DNA of 64,000 nucleotides from an uncultured Acidobacteriota bacterium (GTDB lineage: Bacteria; Acidobacteriota; Terriglobia; UBA7540), in the NCBI GenBank assembly GCA_963804995.1, contig CAWDSK010000001.1, positions 512,001 through 576,000 on the forward strand, given 5' to 3'. The stretch's first letter is position 1. Each line of letters opens with the position of its first letter. Position numbers and translations under genes: made by a program. Shown here in pieces: positions 1 to 40,248 of this stretch. The notes below the pieces were generated by a model. It was not told the origin of the DNA, ran no database searches, and saw nothing but the letters and a program-made list of their open reading frames with translations.

Positions 1-209
1 TTAGGGTCGTTTACCGGATGGGGCTCCGTACCACCCCTCAAGAGCCGATCCGGTCGGTTGCAGTGATTAATACTCCGGGAGAAGTTATAACGCAAGCCCG
101 GACTTTTCTGAATCCCGCCTCAAGGGAACTGTCCGGGTTCTGGTGGGTCGTTTAAGGAAGAATAAAAAAGCGATGGCCATTCCGTCCCCGGCCGGGGGGT
201 TGATTTGCT

Positions 210-271
210 GTAGAGGCGGCGTCCCGATCTGATCGGGACGCCGCCCTATGGCGAGGTAAACTCGCCGCTAC
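210..271. repeat. GTAG-type REP-like inverted doublet (copy A)
   Basis: Begins GTAG and ends CTAC. Perfect 15-bp-arm palindrome 215-245 plus hairpin GGCGAG-GTAAA-CTCGCC 250-266. Near-identical copy at 40686-40754. Confidence 0.8.
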
Positions 272-376
272 GACATCTAATTGACACAGCACAGGCTTGG
301 GGAGAAGGGTAGTCAGCTAAAAGTGCGTTGCTGAGTGGTGGGGGCCTCGCCAGTGTCGGATAAAAAATGAAGGCCA

Positions 377-1315
377 TCACGCCACCGCCTGCAAGAGTTC
401 AGTGATTGTCCAGGCGTGATCGGTGATACCCGCTTGCATGGCAGGAGTTACCCGAAGGGTCTTATGAACACGGCAGAAGTTGTAGAACGCGAACCATACT
501 GCATAGGCAGCCTTCAAGTTCTCCCACTTTTTACTGAAGGCGTTGGTGAGCCTCGTCATTCGACGCATCCCCATGCGAATCGAAAGATTCTGGCGTTCAA
601 CGTGGGATGTGCAAATACGATGGAGCTTCGGCTCTCCCCAGACTGGGACGGGGGTGGCATCGACTACTTCGGCGGGCGAATACCTTTGCTCCCCATCGCG
701 GGGAGTGGAATAGGTCTTTATCAACTGCCCAAAGTCAACGCGGGTGCCCAAGCTGTAAAGAACAGCATCAACGTAAGGCTTGAATCCGTCCGTGGTGATC
801 TGGAAGTGGCCTTGCGTGGCCTCATTGATTTTCTCCGTGAAGGCGACGGTATCTCGGGCGCTTCTCCGTCCAAGGTGCCAGGTCAAGACGATCTTACTGT
901 TTCGCTCGATGGCAACGAAGCAGTAGGCATCCCCCCGCATCGGGTCGCCACTGACATTTTTCTTTTCCTTGCATCCGACGTAGCCCCAGATTTCATCGCA
1001 CTGCACATCGGATACCAGAAGATTACGGATTCGGCCCTCAAGAAGCCGCTCGCACTTGTCGCCTATAAAGACGAGAAGGGAAAGTATCGTGGTGTGGTGA
1101 AGGCGGGTCACGTGCTCAACTGTGCTGACAGAGCATCCCTCGACAAGAAGCTCAATAGCCTTAGCTGCTTTGTCCAGGGGTGTGTACATGCCGCCAAGCG
1201 GTGTAGCGTGGTCCTCAGTGAAGGTCTTAGCGCATTGCCCGCAGCGATAGCGCTGAAGGCCGTTGCGGTGCTTCCCAAACTTCTTGCATTGAGACTGGCA
1301 GTTATGGCAGGTCAT
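377..1315 (-). CDS. IS1-family DDE transposase (single ORF: zinc ribbon, HTH, DDE)
   Basis: N-terminal CxxC...QRYRCxxC, then QCDEIW, ITTDG, TSHVERQN, RLTNAFSKK, YNFCRVH. Confidence 0.9.
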   Translation of the reverse strand: MTCHNCQSQCKKFGKHRNGLQRYRCGQCAKTFTEDHATPLGGMYTPLDKAAKAIELLVEGCSVSTVEHVTRLHHTTILSLLVFIGDKCERLLEGRIRNLLVSDVQCDEIWGYVGCKEKKNVSGDPMRGDAYCFVAIERNSKIVLTWHLGRRSARDTVAFTEKINEATQGHFQITTDGFKPYVDAVLYSLGTRVDFGQLIKTYSTPRDGEQRYSPAEVVDATPVPVWGEPKLHRICTSHVERQNLSIRMGMRRMTRLTNAFSKKWENLKAAYAVWFAFYNFCRVHKTLRVTPAMQAGITDHAWTITELLQAVA

Positions 1316-1321
1316 TTCGGC

Positions 1322-1350
1322 TTGCCTTTCTGCGGAAGCAAGCCGATAAT
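1322..1350 (+). promoter_or_regulatory. Putative sigma70 promoter for an IS-internal small RNA
   Basis: TTGCCT (1322-1327), 17-bp spacer, GATAAT (1345-1350). Overlapped by a perfect 9-bp inverted repeat 1317-1325/1338-1346. Confidence 0.5.
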
Positions 1351-1355
1351 GGGAC

Positions 1356-1440
1356 TGTATCGGTCGGCATTGCGGCTTACCCCGCGTGCTGATTTGGCCC
1401 CGTCAGTAGTTAGTAGCTACTGGCGGGGCTTCTTATTTTT
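1356..1440 (+). ncRNA. Candidate two-hairpin small RNA inside the IS1 element
   Basis: Stems 1362-1369/1387-1394 and 1371-1375/1382-1386, then hairpin 1397-1409/1417-1429 followed by TTCTTATTTTT. Several pairs are G.U on + only. Confidence 0.55.
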
Positions 1441-1951
1441 GACGCTGTGCTTCTTTGAGTCTTTCTGTAAATGCATTCGGATTCATCATCGGATAATCTA
1501 CTTTCTGTTTCGGCGCAGCGGGCCTTATCCACCGATATTCTTTGAATTCTTTGATAGGAGACTTCCCCTTCCGCATCTTGACATCTGTCCGTTTAAATCT
1601 CTTCAAGACGGTATGGACGGAGGCGAGCGGATTAGAAGAATACGCAGAGAAATCGAAGCCGGAGGCAACAAGTCGATCTCTGACCTGTATGGCATTGAGC
1701 CACTCACTAGGATTCGATTCCAGCAAATTCCTTACGGCCTCAGTGAGTCCCACATCGTTCTTTACGGCAAGCTCCAACACCGTCTCGAATGCGCTCAAGA
1801 ACGTAGTACGCTCTTCGTCAGACATCATCCCAAAACTTGCCTTCAACATCTCCAAAACGTTCGCCATTTCCGTTTGCGTTCGCTGCTGTTGATCGGCAAG
1901 CTCGCCGTACCTTTTCACGTGTTCCTGGAAAATGTCTCCGTATTGCGTCAT
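1433..1951 (-). CDS. IS passenger: coiled-coil plus winged-helix (HARE-HTH-like) protein
   Basis: GLTEAVRNLL...LNAIQVRDRLVASGFDFSAYSSNPLASVHTVLKR resembles a wHTH. GGAGG SD precedes ATG 1951. Confidence 0.65.
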   Translation of the reverse strand: MTQYGDIFQEHVKRYGELADQQQRTQTEMANVLEMLKASFGMMSDEERTTFLSAFETVLELAVKNDVGLTEAVRNLLESNPSEWLNAIQVRDRLVASGFDFSAYSSNPLASVHTVLKRFKRTDVKMRKGKSPIKEFKEYRWIRPAAPKQKVDYPMMNPNAFTERLKEAQRQK

Positions 1952-1977
1952 CGACGTATCCTCCATCAACTAAGGAG

Positions 1978-2006
1978 AGTATAAGACAATGTCTAACTCA
2001 TGTCAA
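1978..2006 (-). promoter_or_regulatory. Near-consensus sigma70 promoter for the wHTH passenger gene
   Basis: Minus strand TTGACA (2006-2001), 17 bp, TATACT (1983-1978). Palindrome AGACA-A-TGTCT in the spacer (1984-1994). Confidence 0.7.
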
Positions 2007-2165
2007 GAGAAAAGTGTAGACAAGCGAAATAAATTGTCAGGATGGGATCAAGCGATAAAAGAGGCTCAACAGCACATTAAACAGTTAGAATTTTCAATTC
2101 ACGTCTTCCGCAAACGAAAAAAGGCTGGAGAGACATGGCCTGGAAAGCCAGCAACGCAGAATTAG
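1989..2165 (+). CDS. Small 58-aa helical passenger protein (below ORF-track cutoff)
   Basis: AAGGAG upstream. Translates MSNSCQEKSVDKRNKLSGWDQAIKEAQQHIKQLEFSIHVFRKRKKAGETWPGKPATQN; stop lies inside the right TIR. Confidence 0.55.
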   Translation: MSNSCQEKSVDKRNKLSGWDQAIKEAQQHIKQLEFSIHVFRKRKKAGETWPGKPATQN

Positions 2166-2221
2166 CGCACTACCGGGAGAAGGGGTGCACGCCTGGGAAA
2201 TGAAATTCTGGGAAAGTGGGG

Positions 2222-2264
2222 TTGAAATAAGTTCTCTCTTACGGCTATAATAGCCGTAAGGAGG
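2222..2264 (+). promoter_or_regulatory. ISKra4 promoter with overlapping palindrome and SD
   Basis: TTGAAA, 18 bp, TATAAT (2246-2251). 10-bp IR CTTACGGCTA/TAGCCGTAAG (2238-2260). AAGGAGG SD. Confidence 0.65.
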
Positions 2265-2268
2265 AACC

Positions 2269-2670
2269 ATGGCTCAGTCTTTTGAAGTTCCTGGTCCGGT
2301 CCGTGAGCTTGCCGCTCGGTTGGGTCAGTCCCAGCCCATGCGGCGCGGCTCCCTATCGGAGCGTTATGTGAAATGCGGCAAGCCGGGTTGTGGTTGCGCG
2401 GAGGATGCCAAGGCGCGGCACGGCCCTTATTACAGTCTGACGCGGGCGGTGGGAGGGCAGACCCGCTCCCGCTTCTTGAACCCCGAGGAAGCGCAGCGGG
2501 CGCGAGAGCAGATCGAGACGGGCCAGCAGTTTCGGCGTCAGGTGGAGGCTTACTGGGCTGCCTGTGAGCAATGGGCGGATGCCCAGCTGGAAGCCCGGGA
2601 GGAAGAAGGGCAAGCCGAGGTTAAAAAAAACCGCACTCGGCGAGGCTCTGGCGCACGACCTCACCGCTGA
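2269..2670 (+). CDS. IS accessory protein, DUF6788-like
   Basis: RRGSLSERYVKCGKPGCGC...HGPYYSLTR motif; strong SD. Confidence 0.75.
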   Translation: MAQSFEVPGPVRELAARLGQSQPMRRGSLSERYVKCGKPGCGCAEDAKARHGPYYSLTRAVGGQTRSRFLNPEEAQRAREQIETGQQFRRQVEAYWAACEQWADAQLEAREEEGQAEVKKNRTRRGSGARPHR

Positions 2671-3976
2671 GATTGAGCGCCTGGTGGGTCGGGAAGCCAC
2701 GGCGGCTCTGGACTTCGAGGCGGTGGAAACGGCCGTACGCCGTCAGGCTTTGCGCTTCGCCGCGCGGGTGGTGGAGCAGCGGCTGAATGCCGACCACTCC
2801 GACTTTACCGGAGCCCGTCGGCCGTGTTCCTGCGGTCAGCCCGCGCGCTATGTAGACCGGCGGGCCAAGCCTTTCCAGACCGTGCTGGGCGAATTACGGC
2901 TGGAGCGCGCCTACTATTATTGTGCTGCCTGCCAGCGCGGGTTCTGTCCTCGTGACCAGCAGTGGGGAATGGAGGACACTTCTCTGTCCCCGGCGGTGAC
3001 ACGCATGGTGGGCACGGTGGGAACCTTGGTGAGCTTTCAAGAAGGGCGTGAACTCCTCGGGGAATTGGCGGGCGTGGAAGTAAGTGCCAAGCAGGTGGAG
3101 CGTACGGCGGAGGCGCTGGGAGCGGAAGTCGCCGAGGATGAACGCCAACCGGTGGAGGCGGTGAGGGAAGGACCCTTGCCGCCCACCCTCTATCTCGGCC
3201 TGGATGGTACCGGCATTCCCATGCGCAAGGAGGAACTCACGGGGCGAGCGGGCAAGCAGCCGGATGGCTCCGCCCAAACCCGCGAGGTCAAGGTCTGCGC
3301 CATCTGGAGCGCGGAAGCGCGCGATGCCGAAGGCCGGCCCCGGCGTGATGCTGGCTCGGTCAGCTACTCGGCGGCCATCGAGACGGCGGCCTGCCGCGAC
3401 ACCGACTCCCAGATCGCAGCATTTACCCAGCGCGTCGAGCGTGAGGCGAAGCGTCGAGACTTCGGGCAAGCCTCTCGCCAAGTGGTGATCGGCGACGGGG
3501 CTCCCTGGATCTGGAACATCGCCGCGGAGGTGTTCCCGCAAGCCCTGCAAATCGTGGATCGTTACCACGTGAAGGAGCATTTGAGCCAAGTGGCCAAGGC
3601 CCTCTATGGGCAAGCGGAGGCATCCCATCGCTGGGCGCAACGTCGGCACCAAGAATTGGATGGCGGGCGTTGGCGGAGTCTGACGACGGCGCTGGCCCGC
3701 CATGCGGCCCGCTCACCGGAAGCCCGCAACTGCCTTCAGTACTTGCAGCGCAACCGGCACCGCATGCGCTACGCGGAATTTCATGCCCAGCACCTGTGTA
3801 CTTCCTCAGGGGTTCTGGAGGCGGGTTGCAGGGTCGTCGTGGGGTCGCGCCTAAAACGTTCGGGCATGCATTGGACCGTGCGCGGCTCCAATGCCATCAT
3901 CGCTCTGCGGTGTTACAAACTCAGCGGTCGCTTCGAAGACTTCTGGGAACGCCGGGCGCACAGGGTGGGGGCGTGA
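2564..3976 (+). CDS. ISKra4-family transposase (true start uncertain)
   Basis: CSCG...RAYYYCAAC...CPRD, LDGTG, IGDGAPWIW, VDRYH, SSGVLEAGC, RLKRSGMHW. Confidence 0.85.
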   Translation: MSNGRMPSWKPGRKKGKPRLKKTALGEALAHDLTAEIERLVGREATAALDFEAVETAVRRQALRFAARVVEQRLNADHSDFTGARRPCSCGQPARYVDRRAKPFQTVLGELRLERAYYYCAACQRGFCPRDQQWGMEDTSLSPAVTRMVGTVGTLVSFQEGRELLGELAGVEVSAKQVERTAEALGAEVAEDERQPVEAVREGPLPPTLYLGLDGTGIPMRKEELTGRAGKQPDGSAQTREVKVCAIWSAEARDAEGRPRRDAGSVSYSAAIETAACRDTDSQIAAFTQRVEREAKRRDFGQASRQVVIGDGAPWIWNIAAEVFPQALQIVDRYHVKEHLSQVAKALYGQAEASHRWAQRRHQELDGGRWRSLTTALARHAARSPEARNCLQYLQRNRHRMRYAEFHAQHLCTSSGVLEAGCRVVVGSRLKRSGMHWTVRGSNAIIALRCYKLSGRFEDFWERRAHRVGA

Positions 3977-4157
3977 GCCCGCTCACTCCTTCGTCGTGCA
4001 CCCCGGGAGAAGCGTTGACTTGTGTCATCATCTTGAGTTAGGCTAGCCTTGCGGATCAACGTGTTTAGGTAACGGGTGGTAGTGGTCTAAGAGAGACAAT
4101 TTAAAGCATCTGCTCCAGGGCAGATGAGTTCGGGCTGGGGTGTGAAAGCGAGGCTGC

Positions 4158-6203
4158 ATGGCCGAGGCATTGACCAAAACAGGCCGGTACCAAATCGTCG
4201 GCGAATTGGGCCGCGGGTCGATGGGAGTAGTCTACCAGGGGTACGACCCGATCATTGGACGTACGGTGGCGATCAAGACGATGCTCACCGAAGGCCTCTC
4301 TCCGCAAGAGTTCAACGAATACAAGGCGCGTTTTCAGCGCGAGGCACAGGCCGCGGGAATCCTCGCCCACCCCAACATCATCACGGTATACGATTTCGGA
4401 GAGGATAACGGCATCCTCTATCTGGCCATGGAGTTCCTGGAAGGGAAATCGCTGGAAATGATCGTCGAGGAGCAAAATATTCTGCCCCTCGAAACCATCA
4501 TCCCCATCTATGAGCAGGTTTGCAACGCACTCAACTTCGCCCACCAGCACAAGATAGTGCATCGCGATGTCAAACCCGCCAACATCATGAGACTGCATAG
4601 CGGGCTGGTGAAAATGACCGATTTTGGCATCGCCAAGATGATGTCGATGGGCATGACGCAGGCAGGCCAAATTCTAGGCACGCCGAATTACATGTCACCG
4701 GAGCAGGTCAAGGGCCGCCAGGTGGATGGCCGGTCTGACATCTTTTCCTTGGGCGTGATCCTGTACGAATTAGTGACGGGTGAAAAGCCCTTCGGCGGTC
4801 AGAACATCACCACCGTCATCTACAAGATCATCAATGAGAATCCCATTCCGCCGCGTGAGCTGGACTCGACAATCCATGCCGGCCTGAATTACGTGATCGG
4901 CAAAGCGCTGGCCAAGAACCCTGACGAACGCTACCAGACCTGCAAGGAATTGGCGGAAGATCTGAAGAACTATAAGACCCTGGGAGGGGCGGTTTCACCC
5001 CAAGGGACGATGGTTCTGAAAGTGGCGCCGACTATCGCCGTGGCATCCGAAGCTGCGCCGACCCAAGCGGTAGAAGTTCCACGGCCCCCGGCAGCCACTC
5101 CTCCGGCCGCGCGATCAGGATGGGTTCCCCAGGTGGCACCCCAGGCTACCCCAACTCCCGCGGCGCGATCAGGGTCAGTTCCCCGGGTGGCGCCCCAGGC
5201 TCCGGCTGCTCCTTCGGCGCGATCGGGAGTGGTTCCCCGAGTGGCTCCTCAGGCCCCACCTCCCCCAGCCCCGGCTCCGCAAGAGGCGTCCGTATCTGTT
5301 GCGGAAACACCGATCTCAAGCCCCATCAACATCCAGGTCATAGCCCCGGCGCATCCTCAACAAGGGGGGGAGGTTCCCCAAATCGCCTGGGTCCTCGGCG
5401 CACTTCTGCTGGTGGCCACGGTTGTGGGGGGCGGCTATTACTACCACCTGCGGCACCCGGTAGTGCCCCCTGCCCCGCCTGCACCGGTCGTGGGGCAGCT
5501 TCAGGTCAACGCCAATGTACCCGGCGCGAAGATCTCGATCGATGGGCAGACCAATCCGAGCTGGGTGACGCCTTTCACGATCCCCAGCCTTTCCGTGGGA
5601 ACCCACAACGTCGTCATTTCCATGGATGGCTATCAGGACTTCCAGCAGAGTGTGACGATTGCGGGAGGCCAGACCAACAGCCTCGAGGGTAATCTTCCCG
5701 CGGTCGCGGCTCAGGCCGTCGTGACTCCCCCGAAACAGGAACCCGTCCACGAGAAAACGGTGGTACCCAAGGTGGGACAGCTCCAAGTCAACGCCAACAT
5801 CAGCGGCGCTACAATCTCGATCGATGGGCGGAGCGATCCGAGCTGGGTGACGCCCACTACGATTTCGGACCTTTCCGCGGGAACCCACAACGTGCTTATT
5901 TCCAAAGCCGGTTACGACAACTTCCACCAGAGCGTGACGATTGAAGGGGGCGAGACTAACAGCGTGACGGCGGATTTCTCTGTCCCCAGCGGTGAAATCA
6001 ACATAGAGACGATTCCCCCCGGGGTCGAAGTGCTGATCGATGGCAAACCTTACGGTCCAAGCCCCGTCCGAACAACCTTGAAAGCCGGCGATCACACCTA
6101 CACCCTCAGGCGGCCGGGGTCAGAGCCTTACGAGAGCAAGTTCACGATGCAAGGCGGGGCCATTATGACCAAGAGGGTGAACTTTGGGGGCGCTGCGAAG
6201 TAG
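4158..6203 (+). CDS. Membrane Hanks-type Ser/Thr protein kinase with three PEGA domains
   Basis: LGRGSMG, VAIK, HRDVKPAN, DFG, GTPNYMSPE. Pro/Ala linker, TM helix, repeated GA(K/T)ISIDG...VTP units. Confidence 0.95.
   Translation: MAEALTKTGRYQIVGELGRGSMGVVYQGYDPIIGRTVAIKTMLTEGLSPQEFNEYKARFQREAQAAGILAHPNIITVYDFGEDNGILYLAMEFLEGKSLEMIVEEQNILPLETIIPIYEQVCNALNFAHQHKIVHRDVKPANIMRLHSGLVKMTDFGIAKMMSMGMTQAGQILGTPNYMSPEQVKGRQVDGRSDIFSLGVILYELVTGEKPFGGQNITTVIYKIINENPIPPRELDSTIHAGLNYVIGKALAKNPDERYQTCKELAEDLKNYKTLGGAVSPQGTMVLKVAPTIAVASEAAPTQAVEVPRPPAATPPAARSGWVPQVAPQATPTPAARSGSVPRVAPQAPAAPSARSGVVPRVAPQAPPPPAPAPQEASVSVAETPISSPINIQVIAPAHPQQGGEVPQIAWVLGALLLVATVVGGGYYYHLRHPVVPPAPPAPVVGQLQVNANVPGAKISIDGQTNPSWVTPFTIPSLSVGTHNVVISMDGYQDFQQSVTIAGGQTNSLEGNLPAVAAQAVVTPPKQEPVHEKTVVPKVGQLQVNANISGATISIDGRSDPSWVTPTTISDLSAGTHNVLISKAGYDNFHQSVTIEGGETNSVTADFSVPSGEINIETIPPGVEVLIDGKPYGPSPVRTTLKAGDHTYTLRRPGSEPYESKFTMQGGAIMTKRVNFGGAAK
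5109..5255 (+). repeat. Three 54-nt coding tandem repeats in the kinase linker
   Basis: ARSG(W/S/V)VP(Q/R)VAPQA starting at 5109, 5163 and 5217. Confidence 0.8.
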
Positions 6204-40158: not shown

Positions 40159-40167
40159 TGGTTTATC

Positions 40168-40248
40168 CCAGGCGATGGAGTTCGCCTTTAAGCGTCCCTT
40201 TAGTGGACTGATGACTCCTGGCCGCTGACCGGCGCCCAGGAGTTTTTT
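40168..40248 (+). ncRNA. Fluoride riboswitch with intrinsic terminator
   Basis: GGCGATGGAGTTCGCC...CTGATGACTCCT. Overlapping terminator ACTCCTGG/CCAGGAGT-TTTTT. Upstream of crcB. Confidence 0.95.

What the first reader, a model, noticed from the sequence alone, without database searches (positions are those of the whole stretch)
1317..1440. Candidate structured small RNA encoded inside an IS1-family element
Seen: the 117-bp gap between the transposase and its passenger gene holds a complete unit on the opposite strand. It has TTGCCT-17-GATAAT, an interrupted hairpin (1362-1394), a 13-bp hairpin (1397-1429) and a U-rich tail. Five stem pairs are G.U on + but would be A.C on -, which points to a + strand RNA. 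A 9-bp IR (1317-1346) covers this promoter and would also fold over the transposase SD region. Known: IS10 RNA-OUT and IS200 art200 are IS-encoded antisense regulators, and IS110 uses an IS-encoded RNA for targeting; I know of no such RNA in IS1. Inference: an ~85-nt regulatory or cofactor RNA.
Basis: partly seen in the sequence, partly recalled or inferred. Interest (0 to 1): 0.8.

Follow-up and report, generated by a model that had tools for sequence, protein, structure and literature searches.

The report
Antisense RNA switch on a transposase
A jumping gene of soil bacteria carries a small folded RNA, read from the strand opposite its transposase message, that most likely keeps the message folded over its own ribosome-binding site; antisense control of transposases is known, but this indirect switch on this family of elements appears undescribed.

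Summary
In a 1,867-bp IS1-family element (308-2174, 8-bp TSD), a promoter / two-hairpin / U-tail unit (about 1357-1440, +) lies antisense to the transposase leader. It occurs in 37 of 72 distinct homologous upstream regions. Both hairpins covary (24 of 25 pairs show double changes). G·U polarity favours the + strand (125:8 and 74:17), as does the U-tail, so it is not the passenger gene's terminator. No Rfam family matches. New here: the hairpin-1 apex covaries with the segment that hides the transposase SD/AUG (cognate pairing beats the non-cognate mean in 53 of 53). In the mRNA this gives two exclusive folds, and blocking the RNA-covered part raises the RBS opening cost from about 7 to 13 kcal/mol. 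Best reading (0.65): antisense-driven translational attenuation, resembling IncI1/IncB plasmid control more than RNA-OUT or art200. A guide or cofactor role is unsupported: there is no match to target sites, and RNA-less relatives have transposed. No expression data were available. This scan noted the same switch before on other DNA (e1-7865611, e1-6449663).

The parts
308..2174 (-). IS1-family element with passenger gene, 1,867 bp
   Evidence: TIR pair 308-333/2149-2174, 81% complementary; 8-bp TSD 300-307 and 2175-2182; one full copy in G000
377..1315 (-). single-ORF IS1-type DDE transposase, 312 aa, N-terminal Zn finger
   Evidence: NF033558 88.6 bits (cut-off 100, not reached), NF050000 34 bits (cut-off 28), PF03400 24.3 (cut-off 24.1)
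1313..1351 (-). mRNA hairpin (OFF state) that pairs the anti-SD arm with the SD-like AGAAAGG (1331-1325) and the AUG; contains the 9-bp IR
   Evidence: MFE of the mRNA; present across cassettes with no strand bias of wobbles, 22:27 and 13:13
1322..1350 (+). sigma-70-type promoter of the small RNA (TTGCCT-17-GATAAT)
   Evidence: a TT-starting -35 at 16-18 nt in 53 of 53 cassettes (part of the training set was picked on this feature); unselected test: TT[G/T] at exactly 17 nt in 85 of 87 metagenome hits vs 2 of 105 hits of a loose control pattern
1357..1440 (+). predicted antisense small RNA, about 84 nt (start inferred from the invariant G1357 after a nearly invariant T)
   Evidence: alignment A2; covariation; not observed as a transcript
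1362..1394 (+). hairpin 1, G.U-rich; its apex carries the specificity sequence
   Evidence: 12 of 12 pairs with double changes on model-fitted alignment A4, 6 of 12 on unfitted A2
1368..1385 (-). anti-anti-SD segment of the mRNA (complement of the hairpin-1 apex); pairs with 1332-1351 (17 bp) in the ON state
1396..1440 (+). hairpin 2 plus U-tail: intrinsic terminator of the small RNA; no U-tract on the - strand
1433..1969 (-). passenger ORF, 178 aa, first cistron of the transposase mRNA; possible winged-helix regulator (weak lead); stop codon at the foot of hairpin 2
   Evidence: no Pfam/NCBIfam hit above cut-off; atlas look-alikes are unnamed Acidobacteriota clusters, one with HARE-HTH on 38% of members
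1978..2006 (-). promoter of the passenger-transposase mRNA (TTGACA-17-TATACT, 11/12) with a palindrome at 1984-1994; the passenger appears leaderless
1989..2165 (+). 58-aa divergent ORF inside the element, unverified
   Evidence: no family hit

Best explanation
A portable cassette sits in the 5' leader of the transposase mRNA. On the - strand the leader can fold two ways. OFF: segment 1351-1332 pairs with the SD and AUG. ON: the upstream segment 1385-1368 captures 1351-1332 before the SD is made, leaving the RBS free. The + strand makes an ~84-nt two-hairpin RNA, stabilised by G.U pairs that become A.C mismatches in the mRNA copy. This RNA is the exact complement of the activating segment. Binding through the hairpin-1 loop removes the activator, the OFF hairpin forms, and transposase translation is shut; the duplex may also be cut by RNase III. 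The RNA should act in trans on elements with the same apex, so it would limit copy number. Shown by computation: conservation, strand polarity, covariation of apex with anti-SD, and the energetics. Inferred: transcription of both RNAs, their pairing in vivo, the kinetic origin of ON, repression, and trans action.
For: The cassette lies between a transposase-sense promoter and the AUG: the -10 box is 16-17 nt upstream of it in L002, L016 and L052. In L083, L088 and L093 it is inserted behind the same operator-type promoter that abuts the AUG in RNA-less elements. Cost of opening the RBS: 7.1 kcal/mol free, 13.1 with the RNA-covered part blocked (36 of 37), 12.0 with hairpin 1 shuffled (35 of 37). 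Held-out set: 6.9/11.3/10.5, 14 of 16 each. Apex/anti-SD duplex: cognate -22.2 and -25.4 vs non-cognate -15.1 and -16.6, better than the non-cognate mean in 37 of 37 and 16 of 16. In nascent mRNA, expected ON pairs are 16.1 (own) vs 9.4 (swapped hairpin 1) and 8.8 (shuffled); own is higher in 51 and 53 of 53. Where the apex base is unpaired in hairpin 1, wobbles of the long-range helix fit the mRNA strand 33:13, p=0.005. The RNA is antisense and directly upstream of an IS1-type transposase in 17 of 20 non-window hits from 151 genomes, in 6 of 6 further loci checked, and in 67 of 81 metagenome hits with room to test. Precedent: in IncI1/IncB plasmids an antisense RNA prevents a structure needed for RepZ translation (PMC8053102, passages).
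Against: Neither transcript has been observed. In the window the full-length mRNA is already OFF at equilibrium (OFF -53.9 vs ON -47.3 kcal/mol). The ON helix holds at least 6 expected pairs at full length in only 26 of 53, so ON must often be a co-transcriptional, metastable state, which is inferred. The long-range helix is equally stable on both strands (-23.6 on +, -22.3 on -). Over all its positions wobbles lean to + (66:40; stem positions 51:25); I ascribe this to selection on hairpin 1, and the loop-only count may be biased by C-rich loops. Blocking any region can only raise the opening cost; the shuffle and swap controls address this only in silico. The elements are related, so p-values overstate. 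13 metagenome hits with hairpin 2 and room to test have no transposase downstream.
Confidence: 0.65

Rival explanations
1. The antisense RNA is real but represses by a simpler route: direct pairing of its apex with the SD/AUG (RNA-OUT style), RNase III decay of the duplex, or convergent-transcription interference. The ON fold would then be incidental.
For: In the window, 1368-1381 is a 12/14 direct repeat of 1313-1326, so the apex can pair with the RBS (-21.6 vs -17.4 kcal/mol shuffled). The promoter fires head-on into the incoming mRNA.
Against: Across 37 cassettes RNA:RBS pairing is barely above shuffle (-15.5 vs -13.8; 24 of 37), whereas apex:anti-SD pairing beats shuffle in 36 of 37. The RNA starts 42 nt upstream of the AUG and does not overlap the SD. 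Interference would not explain the covariation.
Confidence: 0.14
2. No functional small RNA: everything is an mRNA leader switch (or terminator) on the - strand, and the + strand features are by-products.
For: The - strand also folds well (z -4.1 to -4.2), and the two-state fold works on the mRNA alone.
Against: Hairpin 1 wobbles are 125:8 and 51:2 for +, with few other mismatches. U-tail is larger on + in 48 of 53. A -35 box at exactly 17 nt is found in 85 of 87 unselected hits.
Confidence: 0.08
3. The RNA recognises DNA: its apex pairs with the non-template strand of its own promoter (spacer to -10), alone or as a guide for an element-encoded protein, for feedback control or as a transposition cofactor.
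For: Apex and promoter spacer covary, and the helix is as stable on + as on -. Overall wobbles lean to + (66:40).
Against: Loop-position wobbles favour the mRNA (33:13). There is no match to insertion sites (5.7 vs 6.3 nt) or to end junctions (5-10 nt) in 15 elements. 35 of 72 upstream regions lack the RNA, among them elements in 2-4 copies per assembly (L019-L022, L037/L038 with different TSDs, L041/L042). Cassette identity does not follow transposase identity (rho 0.14, p 0.35, n 47).
Confidence: 0.07
4. The RNA mainly regulates host mRNAs in trans.
For: The art200 paper raises a possible trans role for its RNA (PMC4513863 abstract). An orphan copy without a transposase lies at G000:C9 (L082).
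Against: The variable apex tracks the element's own anti-SD segment. No host-target search was run.
Confidence: 0.06

Closest known systems
IS200 art200 / tnpA (PMC4513863; abstract, introduction and Fig. 1 legend read)
   Same: IS-encoded RNA of about 90 nt, antisense to the transposase 5' UTR; the SD is also sequestered by an mRNA stem-loop.
   Different: art200 covers the 5' UTR and first three codons and acts independently of the mRNA structure. Here the RNA stops short of the SD and would act through the structure, by removing an anti-anti-SD. The transposase is a DDE IS1 type.
IS10 RNA-OUT / RNA-IN (as summarised in the PMC4513863 introduction)
   Same: Cis-antisense hairpin RNA; loop-initiated pairing; trans action on all copies (predicted here).
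   Different: RNA-OUT's duplex blocks 30S binding directly. This RNA has two hairpins, does not overlap the RBS, and its promoter lies over the RBS.
IncI1/IncB plasmid antisense control of repZ (PMC8053102, passages)
   Same: Antisense RNA in the leader prevents a long-range structure that is needed to free the RBS: the closest mechanistic match.
   Different: The target is a transposase; the predicted activator is a 17-bp strand-exchange helix, not a pseudoknot; no leader peptide is common to all cassettes.
IS110 bridge RNA (recalled; no paper read)
   Same: Non-coding RNA inside an IS with a variable loop that covaries with a DNA segment of the element.
   Different: No match to target or ends, dispensable in relatives, antisense to the transposase leader.
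IS1-family elements with passenger genes (the term 'transporter IS' is recalled)
   Same: Zn-finger plus DDE transposase, GGTA-starting TIRs, 8-9-bp TSD.
   Different: Single ORF, 1.9-4.5 kb with cargo; the RNA cassette was not found in my literature searches.

Membership tests
IS1 family | IS1-type DDE transposase with N-terminal Zn finger | tested here: met
   NF050000 and PF03400 above cut-off; NF033558 E 5e-25 but 88.6 bits is below its 100-bit cut-off; plasmid relatives at 37-40% identity are annotated IS1 family
IS1 family | terminal inverted repeats and 8-9-bp target duplication | tested here: met
   26-bp TIR and 8-bp TSD; end pairs found for 37 of 76 sequences, most with an 8-9-bp TSD
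cis-encoded antisense regulators of transposase (RNA-OUT, art200) | encoded inside the IS opposite the transposase 5' leader, with its own promoter and terminator | tested here: met
   (sequence level only)
cis-encoded antisense regulators of transposase (RNA-OUT, art200) | RNA overlaps the SD/start codon | tested here: not met
   predicted start 1357, SD 1325-1331; the promoter, not the RNA, covers the RBS
cis-encoded antisense regulators of transposase (RNA-OUT, art200) | RNA is expressed and represses transposase translation | not testable with these tools
   no RNA run was listed
IncI1/IncB-type antisense attenuators | antisense target is an upstream element whose long-range pairing frees the RBS | tested here: met
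   in silico only:
IncI1/IncB-type antisense attenuators | pseudoknot and coupling to a leader peptide | tested here: inconclusive
   the predicted ON helix is nested; pseudoknots were not modelled; the upstream module varies (promoter, passenger ORF, tRNA-like gene, RxPP ORF)
IS110 bridge RNA | loops pair with target and donor DNA | tested here: not met
   own-target match no better than others' targets, 15 elements; end junction 5-10 nt
any Rfam 15 family | reaches the gathering score | tested here: not met
   window 200-2300 at E<=5: two chance hits outside the unit; 20 homolog loci: only tRNAs and one Acido-Lenti-1 about 650 nt from the cassette; whole window: only a fluoride riboswitch

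The most novel reading that the evidence does not exclude
The covarying apex is a programmable recognition sequence for DNA: the RNA pairs with the opened non-template strand of its own promoter, alone or with an element-encoded protein, giving RNA-directed feedback at a promoter inside an IS1 element. A milder version (about 0.4) is that the exchangeable cassettes form orthogonal specificity groups that control copy number across transposases only about 40% alike, like plasmid incompatibility.
Probability: 0.07. Interest if true: 0.85.

Novelty: new variant of a known kind. Interest (0 to 1): 0.55.

Why it matters
It would extend antisense control to IS1-family elements, with an attenuator logic known mainly from plasmid replication (anti-SD, anti-anti-SD, antisense RNA), packed with its own promoter into about 125 bp. 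The cassette has been gained, lost or exchanged repeatedly: 7 label changes on a quick tree, at least 3 forced; a 42%-identical transposase carries an 83%-identical cassette, while the 81%-identical one carries a 64%-identical cassette of another type. Natural sister elements with and without it allow a direct test of how RNA control shapes copy number. The covarying variants are a ready library of candidate orthogonal riboregulators.

Tried and rejected
RNA runs: no RNA holder listed; this is no evidence either way, and no reads were laid. Rfam: no family. Acido-1, Soil-1 and Solibacter-1 from Weinberg 2010 (PMC2864571; passages and parts of supplement files 5 and 6 seen) look unrelated by eye; no alignment was made. 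Guide-to-target test negative. Passenger-gene terminator rejected on tail polarity. Transcriptional attenuation rejected for the window: the OFF hairpin runs into the AUG without a U-tract. Model R1 had a mis-registered structure string, exposed (54% paired; best at slide -2). It was rebuilt as R2. The 151-genome class search had used R1; 18 of its 20 non-window hits were given to R2 and all 18 matched. R2 misses the divergent cassettes L005, L023, L039 and L058, so model-based counts are lower bounds. First TIR searches failed through a poor pattern and were redone. The tree is the quick one, not the careful one. Two loose viral patterns gave mostly chance hits. Four alphaproteobacterial plasmid relatives have no cassette. 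Not-in-print claim: searches returned no paper describing an antisense RNA in IS1 elements (listings and abstract starts only). Subscription journals, ISfinder and bioRxiv supplements were not visible, so a prior description cannot be excluded.

Full report
The element. Window 308-2174 is bounded by 26-bp inverted repeats and an 8-bp duplication. It encodes a 312-aa single-ORF IS1-type transposase (377-1315, -), a 178-aa passenger on the same strand (1433-1969), and a strong promoter at 2006-1978 that would transcribe both. It is the only full copy in G000; two 42-43% relatives on C5 have a promoter directly at the start codon and no cassette. Of the 80 best homologous loci from named genomes, 78 are labelled Acidobacteriota.

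The observation. All coordinates check. Alone, the promoter and terminator are not above chance, but the fold is (z -6.3 on +, -4.1 on -). I compared upstream regions of 75 of the 80 loci plus the window; 5 loci were dropped because the match did not reach the N-terminus or lay at the locus edge. That gave 72 distinct regions. The automatic rule flagged 43. I removed 9 by eye as operator-promoter type and added 3 by hand, leaving 37 with the cassette and 35 without. With symmetric scoring, hairpin 1 shows G.U(+):A.C(+) of 125:8 and hairpin 2 of 74:17. Hairpin 2 has double changes in 12 of 13 pairs. On an unfitted 22-sequence alignment 85% of cells pair (0 of 500 shuffles; slid controls 42-49%). 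On a model-fitted 41-sequence alignment 90% pair, with double changes in 24 of 25 pairs (this leans towards the model). Tails are T-rich on + only.

Independent tests. A covariance model hit 17 of 151 genomes of the class (R1) and 6 of 151 of the phylum (R2), G000 included. 17 of 20 non-window hits lie antisense and just upstream of an IS1-type transposase. The exceptions are a MITE-like relic (L100), L098, and an orphan in G000 (L082). None of 33 cassette-less loci given to R2 matched. For held-out statistics I used 16 of the 20, dropping two duplicates, L098 and L082: polarity 51:2 and 36:5. A metagenome pattern fixing only the -10 region and the 5' arm of hairpin 1 gave 108 hits, 88 distinct. 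85 of 87 have the -35 at 17 nt, 86 of 88 have a strong downstream fold, and 67 of 81 with room have the transposase; a loose viral pattern gave 2, 11 and 1 of 105. A conserved + strand RNA gene is therefore very likely (about 0.9), although no transcript has been seen.

In every cassette the apex of hairpin 1 is complementary to the promoter spacer, and the two change together between sequence types (cognate better than the non-cognate mean in 53 of 53). On the mRNA strand the spacer is the arm that hides the SD and AUG, so the copy of the apex is an anti-anti-SD. For the window, the nascent mRNA folds 1385-1368 onto 1351-1332, and the full mRNA prefers the OFF hairpin by 6.6 kcal/mol. Across elements, the upstream segment roughly halves the cost of opening the RBS, and blocking or shuffling it removes the effect. 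Swapped or shuffled hairpins give about 9 instead of 16 long-range pairs. The long-range helix is equally stable on both strands, and its wobbles lean to + overall; at positions free of hairpin-1 constraint they lean 33:13 to the mRNA. The cassette is in the transposase leader: a sense promoter ends 16-17 nt before it in three elements. In three more it follows the same operator-type promoter that cassette-less elements place at the AUG.

Mechanism. Most likely (0.65) the RNA is a translational attenuator: without it ON forms during transcription and gives a window for translation; with it the activator is removed and OFF forms. Conservation, polarity, covariation and energetics are computed; expression, pairing and repression are inferred. 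Rivals are direct RBS pairing, decay or interference (0.14), an mRNA-only switch (0.08), DNA recognition or cofactor (0.07), and host regulation (0.06). Against a guide role: no match to own target sites, and cassette-less elements occur in several copies with distinct duplications.

Evolution. On a quick tree of 69 transposases the label needs 7 changes, at least 3 forced by well-supported branches. Cassette identity to the window does not follow transposase identity. The cassette also heads transposases that lack the Zn finger (L083, L088, L093) and, in a few metagenome contigs, short Cys-rich ORFs. It is a portable module.

Known systems. It works like IncI1/IncB repZ control (PMC8053102, passages) and occupies the place of art200 and RNA-OUT (PMC4513863, abstract, introduction and Fig. 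1 legend; PMC6524683, passages). It fails their direct-overlap feature and matches no Rfam family. Seven literature searches found no description in IS1 elements, within the limits of the library. I reached the switch reading (stated) before seeing earlier notes of this scan. Those notes report the same idea on other DNA (e1-7865611, e1-6449663, e1-3704992) and are not counted as support.

Verdict. A real, conserved, uncatalogued RNA cassette; a new variant of antisense control of transposition; interest 0.55.

Noticed in passing
window 300-307, 2175-2182, 4005-4012: The same 8-bp sequence occurs three times. An ISKra4-family element (about 2183-4004; transposase 2564-3976, NF033572 287 bits) is stacked on the IS1 element at one target, 2 nt before a TTGACT box upstream of a kinase-like ORF at 4158.
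   Followed up: partly
L001 2303-2378, L006, L011, L013, L017, L024, L034 (cassette) and L033, L061, L076 (no cassette): tRNA-like genes lie on the transposase strand 100-220 nt upstream of the start in 10 of 60 loci scanned. Five have stop anticodons (3 TTA, 2 CTA); others have odd body/anticodon combinations. Cassettes followed by such a gene have weaker U-tails (4.5 vs 5.8). Compare the irregular and suppressor tRNAs of Acidobacteria near TA systems and transposon genes (PMC5389517, passages); the 8/4 or 9/3 geometry was not tested.
   Followed up: partly
450 nt upstream of the transposase in 28 of 72 regions (e.g. L003, L032, L049): Short sense-strand ORFs with RGPP/RPPP/RAPP (18 of 35 without the cassette, 10 of 37 with it; 3 on the antisense strand). 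They resemble ribosome-arrest motifs (recalled). Absent from the window's element.
   Followed up: partly
L128, L179, L187, L199, L158 (metagenome): An intact cassette heads 60-86-aa Cys-rich ORFs instead of a transposase: either decayed elements or a toxin-antitoxin-like use of the same switch.
   Followed up: no
L105 1628-1753 and L109 1654-1759: A second RNA-like unit in tandem behind the first.
   Followed up: no
G000:C9:323453-323547 (L082): Orphan copy of the RNA with its promoter, convergent to the 3' end of a 186-aa gene, with no transposase.
   Followed up: partly
flanks of L009, L012, L013, L043, L047, L057: A TTGAC box starts 7-8 nt from the target duplication in several elements, with and without the cassette, suggesting promoter-directed insertion independent of the RNA (read by eye from 30 flanks, no statistics).
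   Followed up: partly
window 40162-40227 (+): Fluoride riboswitch, RF01734, 49.1 bits.
   Followed up: no
window 215-245: Perfect 15-bp inverted repeat with a 1-nt spacer just outside the left TSD.
   Followed up: no
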